Of a stretch of 64,000 bases of DNA, positions 52 to 59,274 are shown one piece after another. Source of the stretch: a virus. Both the position numbers and the translations under genes were made by a program. The notes under the pieces are model-generated. The model ran no database searches, was not told the DNA's origin, and saw only the letters and a list, made by a program, of their open reading frames with translations. The stretch is taken from the IMG/VR virus record IMGVR_UViG_3300037153_000606. One strand, 5' to 3'. Position 1 is the first letter of the stretch. Each line of letters begins with the position of its first letter.

Positions 52-116
52 GACGTGGCTAGGCGTGGCCAGGCTAGGCGAGTCAGGGCCCGGCACGGCG
101 AGGCACGGCATGGCAG
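52..116 (+). ncRNA. Solo GGY-NN guide-like unit (12 pentamers + GGCAG end)
   Basis: GAC-GT GGC-TA GGC-GT GGC-CA GGC-TA GGC-GA GTC-AG GGC-CC GGC-AC GGC-GA GGC-AC GGC-AT GGCAG; same grammar as the 15703-17275 array. Confidence 0.6.
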
Positions 117-4027: not shown

Positions 4028-5491
4028 ATGCCCACCATGCTGGTCCCGCTGGACCTCAAGCAGAACGAGCTGCGCAACGCCTCCATCCAGAACTTGGGCA
4101 CCCCGCCGTCCAATCCGGTCAAGGGCCAGATGTACTTCGATACTGGGTCGAACACGCTCTACTACTGGGACGGCACCGCGTGGCAAGCGGTCAAGTCCGG
4201 CACCGGCGGGCCGCCGACCGGTGCGGCGGGCGGTGACCTCTCCGGCACCTACCCGAACCCGGGTGTCGTGAAGATCAACGGGACGACACTGTCCGGGCTC
4301 GCCACCGGCATCCTGAAGAACACCACCGCCACCGGTGTGCCGTCCATCGCCACGGCGTCCGACATCCCTACCGTCGCGGCCGGGGGCACCGGCCCGCTGA
4401 ATGCCTCTGACGCGTCCACCACGAACGCCCGCACGCCCATTGCGCACGCCACCACTCACCAGCCGGGTGGATCGGACCCGATGGCGGTCGACGCGGTGGT
4501 GGGCACCGGCAGCCTGCGCACCATCGGCACCGGTGCGCAGCAGGCGATGGCGGGCAACACGCGCCTGGACACCATCGCCATGCCGACCGGCAACGTCAAC
4601 ATCAACGGGCACTACATCAACAACGTGCTCGATCCGGTCAGCAGCAGCGACGCGGCGACGAAGAACTACGTCGACACCACCTCCCAGGGCCTGGACGCCA
4701 AAGCCAGCGTGAAGGCCGCGTCGGCCGGGTCGAACCTCACCCTGTCCGGCACGCAGACGGTGGACGGCATCGCGCTGGTGGCCAACGACCGGATCCTGGT
4801 CAAGGACCAGAGCACCACCGCGAACAACGGCATCTACGTGGTCGCGGCCGGAGCGTGGTCCCGCGCGACCGACATGGACTCCTGGGCCGAGGTCCCGGCG
4901 GCGTTCACCTTCGTGGAGCAGGGCACCGTCAACGCCGACACCGGCTGGGTGTGCACCTCCGACCAGGGTGGCACGCTGAATACCACCGCGATCACCTGGA
5001 CGCAGTTCTCCGGTGCCGGTCAGCTCACCGCCGGGGCCGGTCTGACCAAGACCGGCAACCAGATCGACGTGGTCTCCAGCAATGCCGCGATTGCAGTGGC
5101 GGCAGATGCTCTCGCACTGACCCTCGATACCAGCGGTGCAGGCAATGGCCTGCTCGTCACCTCGGGCGGACTCACGGCCAAGGTAGGTCCGGGGCTGACG
5201 TTGAGCGGCCTTGGCATCGTCGTTGATTTTGTCAACACAGCCGGGGCCGCGAATACCTGGATTCCGCGTAAGTGGACGGGCGCGCTGGCCGGGTCGGTCG
5301 CCTACGCCACCGGCGAGGTCTTCACGCACAACCTCGGAACCCGCGATATCCAGGTCGCTGTGGTCAACAACGGCTCGCCCTACAACGCCATCGAGGTGGA
5401 CTGGGAGGCGACCACGGTCAATACCGCCACCATCCGCTACAACTTCAACGTGCTCAACCCCACGGGGTACCGCCTAGTGATCGTGGGCTGA
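4028..5491 (+). CDS. Virion fibre/minor tail protein
   Basis: GGAG RBS; Gly/Thr/Ala-rich; DAATKNYVD and DRILVKDQ..NGIYVV motifs common in phage fibre proteins. Confidence 0.8.
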   Translation: MPTMLVPLDLKQNELRNASIQNLGTPPSNPVKGQMYFDTGSNTLYYWDGTAWQAVKSGTGGPPTGAAGGDLSGTYPNPGVVKINGTTLSGLATGILKNTTATGVPSIATASDIPTVAAGGTGPLNASDASTTNARTPIAHATTHQPGGSDPMAVDAVVGTGSLRTIGTGAQQAMAGNTRLDTIAMPTGNVNINGHYINNVLDPVSSSDAATKNYVDTTSQGLDAKASVKAASAGSNLTLSGTQTVDGIALVANDRILVKDQSTTANNGIYVVAAGAWSRATDMDSWAEVPAAFTFVEQGTVNADTGWVCTSDQGGTLNTTAITWTQFSGAGQLTAGAGLTKTGNQIDVVSSNAAIAVAADALALTLDTSGAGNGLLVTSGGLTAKVGPGLTLSGLGIVVDFVNTAGAANTWIPRKWTGALAGSVAYATGEVFTHNLGTRDIQVAVVNNGSPYNAIEVDWEATTVNTATIRYNFNVLNPTGYRLVIVG

Positions 5492-13873: not shown

Positions 13874-14848
13874 ATGACCCAGCTGATGGTCCCGCAGGGC
13901 GTCCAGGTCCCGATGAAGTCGGACGACTACGTCGCCCAGATCATGGCCAGGCACCAGGGCAAGACAGCCACCCACAACCAGAAGCTGCAGGCCATCGCGC
14001 GGGTGCTCTCCGACGAGGTCTCCGGCTTCAAGCGGCTCGGTGTCGGCATGATCGGCCCGATCCAGCTCAAGCTGCGTTATCAGGGCATCACCCGCAACGT
14101 GCTGGTCGAGGACCCGGTCACGCCGGGCACCCCGGTCGAGTACGACGTGTGGGACGACCTGGGCCAGGCCTTCATCCTGTCCGGCAACGAGGGCGAAGTC
14201 GACATCACGATCTTCGAGGGCAAGCGGGTGCGGGTGGACTTCTACCGCATCGCGTCGCAGGCCCAGATCCGCAAGGAAGACCTGATGTACCTGCGCATCA
14301 ACGCCGTCGAGCAGGCGCAGGACGAGACCAAGCAGTCCATCCTCAAGCAGGAGGACTCCCGGCTGATCATCGTGTTGCAGGCGGCGCTGACCAACTACGC
14401 GACCCGGCCGGACCACGTGATCACCCCGAACCACACGGTGTCGGAGACCTCGGGCTACTACACCCCGGCCTCGTTCTATCAGGCGGTCGCGCAGACCGAC
14501 ATGCACGAGCTGGTGTCCAGCCGCATGCTGGTCAACCCGATGGACTACCGGGACTTCTTCAAGTGGGACATCAACACCACCGGTTGGGCGTTCAAGGACC
14601 GCGTGGTGGCCGGTGAGACGATCACCAGCTTCGGCGAGTTCCAGGTGCAGCGCTCGATCATGGTGCCGCAAAAGTCGCTCTACCTGCTGCCCGAGCCGAA
14701 CTTCCTCGGCGTCTTCCCGGTCCTGTACAGCTTGGACGTGGAGGAGAACCACCAGGTGGCGCGCTTCCTGCGCGGTTGGGTGTTCGACGAAATGGTTTGC
14801 CAATTGGTTCTCAACCCGAGAGGCATAGCGGCTGTTACCAAGCCGTGA
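13874..14848 (+). CDS. Major capsid protein
   Basis: 324 aa; AGGAG RBS; strongly GC3-biased codons; C-terminal LVLNPRGI; synteny; followed by terminator. Confidence 0.8.
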   Translation: MTQLMVPQGVQVPMKSDDYVAQIMARHQGKTATHNQKLQAIARVLSDEVSGFKRLGVGMIGPIQLKLRYQGITRNVLVEDPVTPGTPVEYDVWDDLGQAFILSGNEGEVDITIFEGKRVRVDFYRIASQAQIRKEDLMYLRINAVEQAQDETKQSILKQEDSRLIIVLQAALTNYATRPDHVITPNHTVSETSGYYTPASFYQAVAQTDMHELVSSRMLVNPMDYRDFFKWDINTTGWAFKDRVVAGETITSFGEFQVQRSIMVPQKSLYLLPEPNFLGVFPVLYSLDVEENHQVARFLRGWVFDEMVCQLVLNPRGIAAVTKP

Positions 14849-14907: not shown

Positions 14908-15738
14908 ATGCCTCGGCCGCCGTCTCCAACGACTTCGAAGACGTGTCAACGTGACGGTTGCGATAACCGATTCGAAGTCACCCAAGCCAAAGCTCAGAGG
15001 GATCGTCGATTTTGTTCGAAAGATTGCTCGAACAAAGCCACCGCGCTAATCCGTGGCGCTTCGTATCGAGCCAGTCATGGGTATAAGCCGCCAGTTTGTC
15101 CATGTGGTCGTTCTATCCAACCGAGACCGGGCCAGCGGTACGTCTATTCGAAGAAATATTGCGACATGGAGTGTCGTGCTCGATTTAGCCCGAGGCGACA
15201 ACCCAATCCTGAAAAGTGGGGTTCATACACGTGTCGCGTGTGTGGCACTGAATTCACCCGCCGGAAGAACTCTCGTAATGCCAAGATCTATTGCAGCCTT
15301 GCGTGTGCCAACAAGGAGACCAAGAAGAAGCATCACATCGTGTTGCGCGATGACGATGTTGTGTTCGACAGTGCCTGGGAGGCGTTCTTTTACGGCGCGT
15401 GCAAGATCGCGAAGATCCCGATCGAACGGTTCGACCGAGATCATGGTGTTGCCTACGACCCAGAATACCTGGATCGGTGGTACGCGCCAGACTTCTGGTT
15501 GCCCGACGTCCAGGCATGGGTCGGTCGCACCGGCGTTGCGATCGAAATCAAAGGTGTTGAAGACGACCGCGACGAAACCCGGTGGACCGCCTTCCGGTCG
15601 ACGGGAGTCGACCTGGTGGTGATGGACCGGTACCGGATGGAGAACCTGTCTGCACACTCGTTGTCCGACATCCTGCGAGTCGCCACGATGAGGGACAATC
15701 CCGCCTTGCCATGCCAAGCCGCGACACGCCTAGCCTAA
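14908..15738 (+). CDS. Free-standing endonuclease: Cys-rich zinc-finger repeats + PD-(D/E)XK domain
   Basis: Repeated CxxC..(F/Y)CS..C units; FDSAWEAFF..YAPDFWLP..IEIKG; lower-GC 5' half; 3' end runs into the array. Confidence 0.75.
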   Translation: MPRPPSPTTSKTCQRDGCDNRFEVTQAKAQRDRRFCSKDCSNKATALIRGASYRASHGYKPPVCPCGRSIQPRPGQRYVYSKKYCDMECRARFSPRRQPNPEKWGSYTCRVCGTEFTRRKNSRNAKIYCSLACANKETKKKHHIVLRDDDVVFDSAWEAFFYGACKIAKIPIERFDRDHGVAYDPEYLDRWYAPDFWLPDVQAWVGRTGVAIEIKGVEDDRDETRWTAFRSTGVDLVVMDRYRMENLSAHSLSDILRVATMRDNPALPCQAATRLA

Positions 15739-17275
15739 CCTTGCCACGCCGAACCAGGACTGCCGCGCCCTGCCAAGGGTTGCCCCGCCCAACCCAACCG
15801 GGCCTCGCCTGGCACGCCGAGACGAACCCGGCCAAGTACCGCCGTGCCATGCCGCACCTTGGCAGCCTCACCGAGCCATGCCGAGCCATGCCCATCCACG
15901 CCGTGCCCTGACCACCATGCCGTGCCTGCCGAGCCACGCCAAGCCTTGACCCGCCCTGACGGGCCGAGCCTTGCCCTGACTGCCGAACCACGCCAAGCCA
16001 CACCAAGACCCGACCTGCCAAGCCGAGCCGTGCCGAGCCATGCCTGCCCCGCCGCACCACGCCGCACCATGCCGCTGCCCTACCGTGCCGCACCCTGCCC
16101 GCCTTGCCCAGCCAAGACGTGCCACTCCAGGCCAAACCCTGCCCGCCTTGCCTCACCTCGCCGTGGCCCGCCCAACCGCACCGAGCCCCGCCAAGCCTGC
16201 GTCGCCCCGCCGTGACCCGTCACGCCGGGCCCAACCAAACCACGCCTGCCCGACCGAGCCCTGCGTTGCCCTGCCTGGACCAACCGCGCCTCGCCTGCCA
16301 TGCCCCACCTGGCCAGACCATGCCCAGCCGTGCCAGCCTGCCAAACCGAGCCCTACCGAGCCGTACCCAGACGAGCCAAGCCACACCGTGCCCGCCCAAC
16401 CGGGCCGCACCGGGACTCGCCGAGCCCTACCTTGCCTGCCTTGCCGAGCCGAGCCTCGCCAAGCATTGCCATGCCCAGCCGTGCCTGCCGAACCGAGCCC
16501 TACCGGGCCGAGCGGTGCCCTGCCTGGCCTAGCCGCGCCGCGACTGCCCTGCCTTGCCTCACCCAGCCTTGCCGAGCCGCACCAAGCCTTGCCGCGCCTG
16601 CCGTACCTCGCCCAGCCGAGCCCGGACGGACCTAGCCCCACCGCACGGTGCCCTGCCGAGCCATGACTGCCCTGCCCTGCCGCACCGAACCGAGACGTGC
16701 CGGACCACCCGGGCCAAGCCACGACTGCCGTGCCACACCCTGCCGACCATGCCCAACCCAGCCATGCCGAGGCTGCCCCGCCGTACCGGACCCGGCCGCA
16801 CCAAACCAAGCCATGCCTGCCGCGACCTGCGATGCCCTGCGGTACCAGGACATGCCGTGCCTGCCGAGCCGGGACCCGCCCCGCCATGACTAGCCATGAC
16901 CGGACTTGCCCCACCGAGCCTGCCCAGCCACGCCTTGCCCAGACTTGCCAGGCCTTGCCGTGCGCTGCCAGCCGAGCCAAGCCTTGGCTGCCTCGCCACG
17001 CCGAGCCCTGCCGAGCCCACCTAGCCTTGCCCTGCCACGGCTGCCCTGACATGACCCGCCGTGCGATGCCGAACCGGGCCGGACCATGCCTGCCTACCAG
17101 GCCACGCCCCGACTCGTCCCGCCTTGCCTTGCCTGCCGGGCCGAGCCTTGACTAGCCATGCCTAGCCACGCCATGCCGAGGCTGCCCAGCCATACTGCGC
17201 CGTGCCGAGACTTGCCCCGCGACGACCCGACATGCCTGCCCGACCTCGCCACGCCCACCTAGCCGTGACTGCCAC
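15703..17275 (-). repeat. GGY-NN pentamer array, ~29 units; putative guide-RNA array (VIPR-like)
   Basis: Plus strand reads RCC-NN in 5-nt register, broken about every 8-13 pentamers by a 4-nt step (gcct/gact/ggct/gccc); downstream of and co-oriented with a RAMP-like gene. Confidence 0.85.
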
Positions 17276-17282
17276 GAAGCGA

Positions 17283-17320
17283 ACCGCCGGGATCATGCCC
17301 CACCACATGATCCCGGCGGT
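17283..17320 (-). promoter_or_regulatory. Perfect 15-bp hairpin in the array leader
   Basis: ACCGCCGGGATCATG - 8 nt loop - CATGATCCCGGCGGT. Confidence 0.7.
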
Positions 17321-17363: not shown

Positions 17364-17819
17364 TCAGCTCGCCTGATGCTCGCCGTTCAGGTCGTCGAGC
17401 ACCATCCGGGTGAACTCATCCAAGTGACGGTACTGAGCTGCTAGCGCACGCCAGCGCCGTTCCGCCTCCTGCAGGATCAACCTCCGCTTGAGCGGGTCGA
17501 GCGCGATGTCCTCGACCGGTTCATAGTTCGGTTGGTGCGCCGTAGGGCGCGACACCGCGATGTACTTGCGGACCCGTTTCTCCTCGTCCGATGCATCCCG
17601 GTAGACCACCTTCACCGAGGTGATCAGCTTGTGGGCCTGGGTGAGCCGGTGTTTCTCCCCGGCCACCCGGTTGTCCCACTCGAAACGCGAGTACAGCGGG
17701 TGTTTCCTGCCGAGCGACTGGACGTCGGCCAACACCGCCCGAGGAGTCAGCTCGCCCTGTCGTTGGCGAACCTCCTCAAGCTGGCGAGCCAACTCCTCGT
17801 GAGCGGTGAAGGCGGTCAT
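17364..17819 (-). CDS. Accessory protein of the RAMP/array operon, function unknown
   Basis: 151 aa; starts 3 nt after RAMP-like gene stop; LTPRAVL..HPLYSRFEWDN..AGEKHRL.QA..LI. Confidence 0.8.
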   Translation of the reverse strand: MTAFTAHEELARQLEEVRQRQGELTPRAVLADVQSLGRKHPLYSRFEWDNRVAGEKHRLTQAHKLITSVKVVYRDASDEEKRVRKYIAVSRPTAHQPNYEPVEDIALDPLKRRLILQEAERRWRALAAQYRHLDEFTRMVLDDLNGEHQAS

Positions 17820-17822
17820 GGC

Positions 17823-18452
17823 TTAGTTGATGACCGTGATCTCGCGGGCCTGGTCGATCTCGAACGTCCCGTACTCGCCGTTCTTCTCCGGACGCCACTC
17901 ACCGACACCGACGGTGAGACCGGCGGCGGAGATGATCGAGAGCACCGAGTCGCGGGTGATCGCGGACTTGACGTACTGCACGGTCAGCTCGGAGGTCCAG
18001 TCCGGGAACTCGGCGCGGTAGCGCAGGTCGGTGCCACTGATGCCAACCGTCACCATGTCCTCGCGCATCTTCGGCTCGCCGACGATCGGGAAGAGCGCCT
18101 GGTTGCAGTGTTCGCTCATCACGCCACGGAAGAACAGGAACTGGCGCAGCTCGGTCATCCGGACCGACTTGCCGTACAGCCGGGCGGCGGACACCGTCGC
18201 GGCCTTGAACGCGACGGACGGGAAGCCGTAGCCGTCGGCGGTGCGGTACAGCGAGGACTCGAACTCGGCCTCGGGGTCGCGGGGTTCCTTGATGGTCTTG
18301 CGGCCCTGCTGGGTGTCCAGCATCTGGCGCTTGGCCTTCTCCGACCAGTTGTGCACGATCAGCGGCATGGTGCCGACGACCGGCACGAGCAACGTCTCGA
18401 CGTCGATCTTGGTGATGTCCAGTTGGGCTGGAGCGGCGGCTGCTGCGGGCAT
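17823..18452 (-). CDS. Stand-alone Cas7/RAMP-like RNA-binding protein (Vipr-like)
   Basis: 209 aa from ATG 18452 with AGGAGG RBS; V.GTMPLIVH first strand, FPSVAFKAA helix, C-terminal glycine loop GVGEWRPEKNGEYGTF; no other cas genes in the window. Confidence 0.75.
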   Translation of the reverse strand: MPAAAAAPAQLDITKIDVETLLVPVVGTMPLIVHNWSEKAKRQMLDTQQGRKTIKEPRDPEAEFESSLYRTADGYGFPSVAFKAATVSAARLYGKSVRMTELRQFLFFRGVMSEHCNQALFPIVGEPKMREDMVTVGISGTDLRYRAEFPDWTSELTVQYVKSAITRDSVLSIISAAGLTVGVGEWRPEKNGEYGTFEIDQAREITVIN

Positions 18453-59193: not shown

Positions 59194-59247
59194 CCTCGCC
59201 CTGCCAAGCCATGCCCCGCTGAGCCGCGCCGGGCCTAGCCATGCCGT
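59193..59247 (-). ncRNA. Solo GGY-NN guide-like unit (11 pentamers)
   Basis: gcctc gccct gccaa gccat gcccc gctga gccgc gccgg gccta gccat gccgt, directly at the helicase stop. Confidence 0.75.
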
Positions 59248-59274
59248 GCAGGAGCGAGTCTAGGCTCCGGACCC

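What the first reader, a model, noticed from the sequence alone, without database searches (positions are those of the whole stretch)
16248..17091. Other decoded units resemble TIR, ThiF/E1 and HTH motifs: possible silencing of defence or rival-element genes
Seen and decoded: 16248-16296 cg ga ct tt ct tg ca gc tc = R[DE]L[FL]L[CW][HQ]AS, like the TIR first strand D.F.sHAS. 17043-17091 ct at cc gt at ga gg gg at = L[IM]PV[IM][DE]GG[IM], like ThiF/E1 LIPVIDGGI. 16340-16393 aa ga ct ga gt ca ga aa ac gt = [KN][ED]L[ED]V[HQ][ED][NK]TV, like the HTH L.VH.NTV. Others read as plausible peptides: 16600-16668 VSHDRGYPAVLEI and 16863-16921 DGPPMYIRLPE. Knowledge: TIR (Thoeris), E1-like and MazG-like domains are common in antiphage systems and mobile elements. 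Inference: the array may act as programmable anti-defence as well as against other phages. The motifs are short and degenerate, so each match is weaker than the MazG one.
Basis: inference. Interest (0 to 1): 0.8.

Follow-up and report, generated by a model that had tools for sequence, protein, structure and literature searches.

The report
Phage VIPR guides matching defence genes
This stretch is part of a long guide-RNA array of a recently described phage system (VIPR). Two of its guides spell conserved motifs of bacterial TIR and E1-like (ubiquitin-type) genes, so the phage may use it to switch off host or rival-element defence genes.

Summary
The region lies inside a 1.57 kb array (15701-17273, RNA sense on the minus strand) of GGY-NN pentamers, punctuated by 4-nt GGCA phase shifts. 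Downstream of it on the plus strand lie a Cas7-like gene (17823-18452) and a small partner gene.

This is a VIPR system, published in three 2026 bioRxiv preprints.

Results per guide:
- **ThiF/E1:** confirmed. At least 120 exact hits in metagenome contigs; 77 of the 80 fetched are in frame as LIPVIDGGI. All 7 ORFs tested carry a Pfam ThiF domain, often beside multiubiquitin genes. There are 6 exact hits in 400 Actinomycetes genomes and 0 for the reversed control.
- **TIR:** supported. It matches 17/18 bases in frame at RDLFLCHAW, the start of TIR_2 domains in Actinomycetes (shuffled controls never better than 15/18). One such gene sits beside GmrSD on an integrative element.
- **HTH:** not demonstrated. 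The best match is 18/20, in a PucR-type HTH, at the chance rate.
- **The two "plausible peptides":** no exact hit in viral contigs.
- **MazG guide (reference):** 38/38 exact in-frame hits.

The system is already known; guides against defence-type genes are not mentioned in those preprints. Silencing itself is untested. Earlier notes of this scan on the same genome proposed the same reading.

The parts
15701..17273 (-). Staggered vrRNA array: about 30 units of 6-13 GGY-NN pentamers, separated by 4-nt GGCA (TGCC on the + strand) phase shifts
   Evidence: Parse; triplet counts; matches the 'staggered arrays with 1-nt overlapping vrRNAs' of the VIPR preprint
16247..16295 (-). Guide decoding to R[DE]L[FL]L[CW][HQ]AS; candidate target is the N-terminal strand of TIR_2 domains (RDLFLCHAW)
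   Evidence: 17/18 bases in frame in L203, L211; 15/16 core in L204; shuffled controls mean 4.5, min 3 mismatches; ORFs are TIR_2, E 1e-11 to 1e-15
16339..16392 (-). Guide decoding to [KN][DE]L[DE]V[HQ][DE][KN]TV; target unresolved (PucR-type HTH-like at best)
   Evidence: 0 exact hits; single 18/20 hit in a GAF-GGDEF_2-HTH_30 ORF; 18-base trimmed scans at chance level
16486..16544 (-). Guide decoding to [DE][DE]LG[DE]VLWYAA; matches MazG-like NTP pyrophosphohydrolase genes (reference unit from another finding)
   Evidence: 38 exact 22/22 hits in viral contigs, 38/38 in frame as DELGDVLWYAA
16599..16667 (-). 13-NN guide (one pentamer has a broken GGY scaffold); target not found
   Evidence: 0 exact hits in viral contigs
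16862..16920 (-). 11-NN guide; target not found
   Evidence: 0 exact hits in viral contigs
17042..17090 (-). Guide decoding to L[IM]PV[IM][DE]GG[IM]; matches LIPVIDGGI in the ThiF domain of E1-like proteins of multiubiquitin-type operons
17283..17320 (.). Perfect 15-bp inverted repeat between the partner gene and the array; role unknown, no T-run follows it
   Evidence: I17; sequence
17364..17819 (-). Small partner gene (151 aa), in the position of a vap gene; phrog_15946, no Pfam hit
   Evidence: a gene of similar size follows the vipr homologue in the Ecliptus, UmaThurman, Donkeykong and Naumannella loci (homology not tested)
17823..18452 (-). vipr gene (209 aa), a Cas7-like RAMP
   Evidence: Profile hit to PDB 36pp_D 'SUSP1 Vipr protein', E 2.2e-7; AF2 model pLDDT 84; Foldseek hits to Csm3/Cas7 at E about 1e-5; phrog_4652; 4736 relatives, none with a Pfam domain among the 120 listed
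54..115 (+). Short GGCNN pentamer run; possible solo vrRNA
59198..59249 (-). Short NNGCC pentamer run; possible solo vrRNA

Best explanation
The region is the central part of a staggered vrRNA array of a phage-encoded VIPR system.

**Shown elsewhere, for E. coli and Pseudomonas systems.** The array is transcribed. Each roughly 45-70 nt unit is coated by a helical filament of the Cas7-like Vipr protein, which buries the GGY triplets and presents the NN pairs. The NN pairs base-pair with one strand of double-stranded DNA, skipping every third base. This forms a triplex that blocks transcription.

**Inferred here by homology and architecture.** The same mechanism applies to this actinophage. The RNA is read from the minus strand.

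**Shown here by search.**
- One guide in the region equals the codon-position-1,2 string of the conserved LIPVIDGGI motif of E1-like ThiF proteins in multiubiquitin-type operons.
- One matches the RDLFLCHAW start of a TIR_2 subfamily in Actinomycetes, with a single mismatch at the 5'-most NN of the guide.
- A neighbouring guide equals the DELGDVLWYAA motif of phage MazG genes.
- All three guides are complementary to the coding strand.

**Inferred.** By aiming at invariant protein motifs and ignoring wobble bases, the phage can silence whole families of genes carried by hosts or resident mobile elements. Some of these look like anti-phage defence genes. The other three guides named in the finding have no identified target.
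For: **Vipr identity**
-.

**Array next to vipr homologues**
- Seen in Gordonia phages Ecliptus and UmaThurman, Mycobacterium phage Donkeykong, Pseudomonas phage LESphi2 and cyanophage Cy-LDV1.
- A Naumannella prophage has a 250-nt gap after vipr, which I did not scan.

**Published code and mechanism**
-.

**MazG guide**
- 38/38 exact in-frame hits, where far fewer than 1 is expected.

**ThiF guide**
- At least 120 exact hits; 77 of the 80 fetched are in frame.
- 7 of 7 tested ORFs carry ThiF PF00899.
- In 400 Actinomycetes genomes, 17 have a match with at most 1 mismatch and 6 are exact; the backwards control gave 0.
- The three exact hits fetched belong to the same E1 family.
- Neighbours include Multi_ubiq, HTH_3 plus Peptidase_M78, and ResIII/methylase.

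**TIR guide**
- 17/18 bases against a minimum of 3 mismatches in 200 shuffles.
- The ORFs are TIR_2. One lies beside a second TIR gene, GmrSD, and pSAM2-type RepSA and FtsK genes.

**Orientation**
- Plus-strand decoding looks protein-like. NN frequencies correlate with codon positions 1-2 of the window's own genes (r = 0.56) but not with the reverse complement (r = -0.02).
Against: - No RNA or binding data exist for this phage, and its host is unknown.
- The TIR match has one mismatch. No exact TIR hit exists in one genome each of 185,579 species.
- The HTH guide and the two other guides have no target above chance.
- The E1 family falls below every curated NCBIfam cut-off. It gives only partial PADLOC hits to CBASS E1-E2 models, so its defence role is inferred from gene context only.
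- A 9-NN string could coincide with a very common conserved motif by chance at perhaps 0.1-1% per guide (my own rough estimate).
- Guides do not converge on one element: only the MazG guide matches the 38 MazG contigs.
Confidence: 0.8

Rival explanations
1. The guides are aimed at rival mobile elements (integrative elements, prophages, satellites), as in published VIPR cases. The TIR and E1 genes are simply conserved cargo that makes a convenient target. The benefit would be competition between elements, not relief from immunity.
For: Published natural targets are satellites, prophage regulators and other VIPRs. The matched TIR gene in G094 lies on a pSAM2-type integrative element. MazG is a phage gene.
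Against: Guides on one element should converge on it, and that was not seen on the contigs available. The motifs are conserved across phyla rather than specific to one element. The two readings are not exclusive.
Confidence: 0.3
2. The TIR and ThiF resemblances are coincidences: short degenerate strings that happen to hit common motifs. The real targets lie elsewhere.
For: Units are only 9 NN long. Exact TIR-pattern hits were at chance level (12 found, about 17 expected) and none were in TIR genes. The HTH guide behaves like chance.
Against: The ThiF hits are 96% in frame, in one protein family, with 0 control hits. The TIR test was made a priori on TIR loci, and 0 of 200 shuffles reached the observed score. 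The 11-NN MazG guide shows that this array does encode conserved protein motifs.
Confidence: 0.08
3. The array is not a guide store. It is a repeated binding platform or decoy (a TRAP- or CsrB-like protein sponge, or structural DNA) in which the NN are mere spacers.
For: Period-5 triplets resemble TRAP sites. One NN position avoids making GGCC.
Against: The neighbouring protein is a Vipr homologue. NN strings equal real coding motifs. Published experiments show that the NN set the specificity.
Confidence: 0.03

Closest known systems
VIPR (Viral Interference Programmable Repeat) systems: Vipr protein + vrRNA + vap. bioRxiv 10.64898/2026.04.26.720920, 10.64898/2026.04.26.720927, 10.64898/2026.10.15.759431
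   Same: Cas7-like Vipr gene, adjacent small partner gene, GGY-NN pentamer RNA array, staggered array layout, 1-nt-skip code aligned to codon wobble, phage-encoded.
   Different: The host range is actinophage, in a genome of about 150 kb. The array is very long (about 30 units, 1.57 kb), and I saw no conserved 3' tail between units. The guides match TIR_2, E1-like ThiF and MazG motifs, target classes that a term search of two of the preprints did not find. All three validated guides are complementary to the coding strand.
Class 1 CRISPR-Cas backbone (Cas7/Csm3 filament on crRNA)
   Same: RAMP fold. The protein polymerises along a guide RNA, and pairing is interrupted periodically.
   Different: There are no CRISPR repeats or spacers, and I saw no cas1/cas2 or other cas genes next to the locus. 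Pairing is 2 bases per 5-nt RNA unit and 3-nt DNA step, instead of 5 of 6. The published outcome is repression rather than cleavage.
Phage anti-defence by nucleic-acid mimicry or regulation (for example phage-borne CRISPR arrays and 'dummy' crRNAs; from my own knowledge and the discussion shown)
   Same: A phage carries programmable RNAs that could neutralise host or rival functions.
   Different: Here the proposed action is transcriptional silencing of defence genes by a phage-encoded effector. It does not hijack or block a host effector.

Membership tests
VIPR system | Vipr protein: a minimal RAMP (RRM core, G-loop, thumb) related to SUSP1 Vipr | tested here: met
   Profile of 28 homologues hits PDB 36pp_D 'SUSP1 Vipr protein', E 2.2e-7. 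The AF2 model (pLDDT 84) hits Csm3 / type VII Cas7 by Foldseek, E 1e-5.
VIPR system | vrRNA made of tandem GGY-NN pentamers (9-16 per guide) next to vipr | tested here: met
   286 pentamers, 79% GGY on the minus strand, mostly in units of 6-13 (a few short fragments). The array ends about 90 nt from the partner gene, on the same strand as vipr.
VIPR system | Targets follow the 1-nt skip rule, with the skip at the codon wobble position | tested here: met
   MazG 22/22 (38 hits, all in frame), ThiF 18/18 (77/80 in frame), TIR 17/18 in frame. Within the window, no skip period from 2 to 6 beat shuffled guides.
VIPR system | Accessory vap gene | tested here: inconclusive
   A 151-aa gene follows vipr (phrog_15946, no Pfam hit). 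Genes of similar size follow the vipr homologue in the relatives I looked at, but neither their homology to it nor its relation to published vap1-6 was tested.
VIPR system | vrRNAs are expressed, processed and bound by Vipr; target transcription is repressed | not testable with these tools
   Needs sRNA-seq, pull-down and reporter assays.
VIPR type II (SUSP1 / P. fulva clade) | Each vrRNA ends in a conserved ~40-nt structured 3' tail | tested here: not met
   Units abut through a 4-nt GGCA shift, leaving no room for a ~40-nt tail. This fits the 'staggered array' class of the preprint instead. The VIPR type was not assigned.
CRISPR-Cas | Repeat-spacer array | tested here: not met
   No repeat of more than 5 nt alternating with spacers. 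I saw no cas genes among the neighbouring ORFs, but did not search for them specifically.

The most novel reading that the evidence does not exclude
A lytic-type actinophage uses VIPR as a programmable, family-wide anti-defence device. Guides written against invariant motifs of TIR-domain and E1-like (multiubiquitin-type) immune genes shut down their transcription in the infected cell. Guides against MazG and other genes handle rival phages. The published VIPR papers read here do not mention this role.
Probability: 0.4. Interest if true: 0.75.

Novelty: new member of a known kind. Interest (0 to 1): 0.55.

Why it matters
VIPR was described only in 2026, with targets in satellites, prophage regulators and other VIPRs. 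This locus adds a very large staggered array in an actinophage. It also adds computational evidence that some guides spell invariant motifs of TIR and E1-like genes found in defence-type contexts.

If those genes are real targets, RNA-guided silencing joins the list of phage counter-defence strategies. Decoded VIPR arrays could then be read as a catalogue of what a phage fears in its host.

The work also gives a practical lesson for target calling. Exact-pattern scans missed the TIR target because of one mismatch at the guide's 5'-most NN.

Tried and rejected
- **Protein-coding reading of the array:** rejected. Period 5 with 4-nt shifts, and stops in all frames.
- **TRAP- or CsrB-like binding-site sponge:** my first idea. 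Dropped once the Vipr homology and the real coding matches appeared.
- **Self-targeting:** none. No guide matches the rest of the window better than shuffled guides at periods 2-6. The same holds for six related phage loci.
- **Convergence of other guides on the 38 MazG contigs:** none.
- **Exact scans that found nothing or only chance hits:**
  - 13-NN and 11-NN guides in viral contigs.
  - HTH guide in viral and metagenome contigs, plus two trimmed versions.
  - ThiF guide in viral contigs.
  - TIR guide in genome and viral contigs.
- **Literature searches on 'pentanucleotide/pentamer repeats':** nothing relevant. The link came from the PDB hit named 'Vipr'.
- **Naming the E1 family:** NCBIfam and PADLOC gave only sub-threshold ThiF/MoeB and partial CBASS E1-E2 hits. 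A literature search on multiubiquitin, ThiF and phage gave one general review.
- **Locus L209:** left out of the TIR test because it comes from the unpublished genome G025.

Full report
**1. The observation**

The plus strand between about 15701 and 17273 is C-rich (GC skew -0.30). It consists almost wholly of 5-nt units of the form NN[G/A][C/A]C.

A dynamic-programming parse finds 286 pentamers. Their triplets are GCC 177, ACC 50, GAC 34 and others 25. The pentamers fall into runs of mostly 6-13, each run preceded by a 4-nt unit (TGCC, sometimes CGCC). On the minus strand this reads GGY-NN pentamers punctuated by GGCA.

Every coordinate is off by one base.

**2. What the array is**

*Neighbouring genes.* Two minus-strand genes lie just to the right of the array.
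- 17823-18452 (209 aa) is phrog_4652.
- 17364-17819 (151 aa) is phrog_15946.
- Neither has a Pfam hit.

*Array next to homologues in other phages.* tblastn finds homologues of the 209-aa protein in 34 phage records. I fetched five of these loci, and a GGY-NN array with GGCA punctuation lies directly next to the gene, on the same strand, in each:
- Gordonia phages Ecliptus and UmaThurman;
- Mycobacterium phage Donkeykong;
- Pseudomonas phage LESphi2 and cyanophage Cy-LDV1, which share only 25-26% identity.

*Size and fold of the family.* The family has 4736 clusters in the large protein collection, and none of the 120 listed has a Pfam domain. A profile of 28 members hits one solved structure, PDB 36pp_D 'SUSP1 Vipr protein', at E 2.2e-7. 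An AlphaFold model (pLDDT 84) matches Csm3 and type VII Cas7 subunits at Foldseek E about 1e-5.

*Literature.* The name 'Vipr' led to three 2026 preprints. They describe VIPR systems as follows:
- They are mostly phage-borne.
- They consist of a minimal RAMP (Vipr), an accessory vap gene, and vrRNAs of 9-16 GGY/NN repeats.
- The NN pairs recognise double-stranded DNA with one base skipped per pair. In natural targets the skipped base is usually the codon wobble.
- Vipr forms a helical filament that buries the GGY triplets. The gapped RNA-DNA hybrid wraps the other DNA strand as a triplex.
- The outcome is transcriptional repression.
- Seven types exist, and 'staggered arrays' of vrRNAs overlapping by 1 nt are one described layout.

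The window's locus fits that layout.

**3.

*Orientation.* The plus-strand reading looks protein-like, while the reverse reading is rich in Ser, Arg and stop-compatible pairs. NN frequencies correlate with codon positions 1-2 of the window's own genes (r = 0.56) but not with their reverse complement (r = -0.02). A model of independent bases explains much of this (r = 0.87).

*Reference unit (MazG).* The 11-NN unit at 16486-16544, searched as a 22-base gapped pattern, gives 38 exact hits in IMG/VR. All 38 are in frame, spelling DELGDVLWYAA in ORFs of 51-192 aa (some cut by the locus end) whose sequence around the motif looks MazG-like; I did not run a family search on them. Chance predicts far fewer than one hit. 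This shows that the array really encodes conserved protein motifs. No other unit matches those contigs.

*ThiF/E1 unit (17042-17090).*
- It has no hit in IMG/VR.
- In 77 of the 80 fetched loci the pattern's frame is the longest open frame. The peptide is LIPVIDGGI, in the context PRxVLNxIAYAHLIPVIDGGI, within ORFs that are mostly 450-630 aa.
- Seven of seven tested ORFs have Pfam ThiF (E 1e-26 to 1e-33), and the motif lies inside the domain.
- In 400 genomes sampled from the class containing Naumannella, 17 have a match with at most 1 mismatch and 6 are exact. The backwards control pattern has none.
- The three exact hits fetched belong to the same E1 family. The 1-mismatch hits include unrelated proteins.
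- In one locus the operon reads HTH_3, Peptidase_M78, Multi_ubiq, a small ORF, then ThiF. In another locus the neighbours are a ResIII/TnsA-like protein and a DNA methylase.
- Simple phmmer finds Multi_ubiq relatives in 24 of 83 loci and the E1 N-terminal region in 67 of 83.
- Curated models do not name the family.
- From my own knowledge, multiubiquitin/E1/E2 operons are regarded as conflict systems, and HTH plus M78 pairs regulate CBASS. That link is an inference, not a test.

*TIR unit (16247-16295).*
- Exact scans gave 12 hits in one genome each of 185,579 species, against about 17 expected by chance. They gave 2 hits in IMG/VR. The hits are mostly out of frame, and none is in a TIR gene.
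- I then tested the hypothesis directly. In 29 TIR_2 loci drawn from about 100 Actinomycetes genomes (97 kb), the unit matches 17/18 bases in frame at RRDLFLCHAWDDR in two loci, and its 8-NN core matches 15/16 in a third.
- 200 order-shuffled guides averaged 4.5 mismatches and never did better than 3.
- The one mismatch is the last plus-strand pair (TC against TG), which is the 5'-most NN of the vrRNA.
- The ORFs are TIR_2 (E 1e-11 to 1e-15), and the motif lies at the start of the domain.
- In G094 the gene lies beside a second, ThsB-like TIR gene, a GmrSD endonuclease, and pSAM2-type RepSA and FtsK/SpoIIIE genes. I read that as defence cargo on an integrative element.

*HTH unit (16339-16392).*
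- No exact hit in IMG/VR or in metagenome contigs.
- Two trimmed 18-base versions give two hits each, about the chance rate, with no common family.
- With up to 2 mismatches, 101 Actinomycetes genomes give one hit, against about 1.4 expected.
- That hit is in frame in the HTH_30 (PucR-type) domain of a GAF-GGDEF_2-HTH_30 regulator, reading KNELHVHVNTV.
- So the resemblance to an 'L.VH.NTV' helix is real at family level, but no target is demonstrated.

*The 13-NN and 11-NN units.* Neither has an exact hit in IMG/VR. The 13-NN unit contains one pentamer with a broken GGY scaffold.

**4. Mechanism**

Steps shown elsewhere and assumed here:
- transcription of the minus strand;
- processing at the phase shifts;
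- Vipr filament assembly;
- gapped pairing and triplex formation;
- repression.

Shown here: the code-level identity of three guides with conserved coding motifs, always complementary to the coding strand.

Inferred: the phage silences TIR- and E1-type genes of the host or of resident elements, and MazG genes of rival phages. Aiming at invariant residues while skipping wobble bases gives family-wide reach.

**5. Novelty**

The system and its code are already published. What this locus adds:
- an actinophage example with a very long staggered array;
- target classes (TIR_2, E1-like ThiF, MazG) that the two preprints I searched for those terms do not mention.

Earlier first-stage notes of this scan on the same genome had proposed the RAMP-plus-array system, the decoding rule and the MazG reading. 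I tested those claims here rather than relying on them.

**6. Verdict**

- Observation: confirmed.
- Interpretation: partly supported. ThiF/E1 is confirmed, TIR is supported with one mismatch, HTH and the two other peptides are unresolved, and the anti-defence function is plausible but untested.

Noticed in passing
L003:6625-6948 (Gordonia phage UmaThurman gp40) and L004:5480-5866 (Mycobacterium phage Donkeykong gp48): CDSs annotated as 'hypothetical protein' lie over GGY-NN vrRNA arrays. They are probably not genes.
   Followed up: partly
L005:2600-2960 (Pseudomonas phage LESphi2) and L006:3590-3800, 4380-4500 (cyanophage Cy-LDV1): Distant vipr homologues (25-26% identity) also have GGCNN arrays beside them. 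In LESphi2 the arrays come as three short runs separated by other sequence. Cy-LDV1 has a second period-5 stretch further downstream.
   Followed up: partly
window 54-115 and 59198-59249: Short isolated pentamer runs far from the vipr gene, in opposite orientations. They may be solo vrRNAs of the kind described for Enterobacteriaceae phages.
   Followed up: no
window 17283-17320: Perfect 15-bp inverted repeat between the partner gene and the array, with no T-run after it. It could be a processing or transcription signal.
   Followed up: no
window 14908-15738 (+): A 276-aa ORF with Cys-rich, HNH-endonuclease-like features (phrog_1271) ends exactly where the array begins, just after the major capsid gene (13874-14848).
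   Followed up: no
L187-L190 (Actinomycetes genomes): One-mismatch matches of the ThiF guide fall in frame in an unrelated conserved motif, L[KN]PV[IM]EGGIHTAGTSSQ, which looks thiolase-like from memory (not tested). These would be off-targets if one mismatch is tolerated.
   Followed up: no
window 15701-17273: All three guides with identified targets are complementary to the coding strand, and the whole array decodes as protein-like only in that orientation. The published systems hit both strands.
   Followed up: partly
L179:5675-7291 (Naumannella halotolerans prophage): The vipr gene sits just after a cro-like HTH gene in the early region of a prophage, with a 250-nt gap before the 142-aa downstream gene. 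This is the same layout as in the Gordonia temperate phages. The gap was not scanned for pentamers.
   Followed up: no
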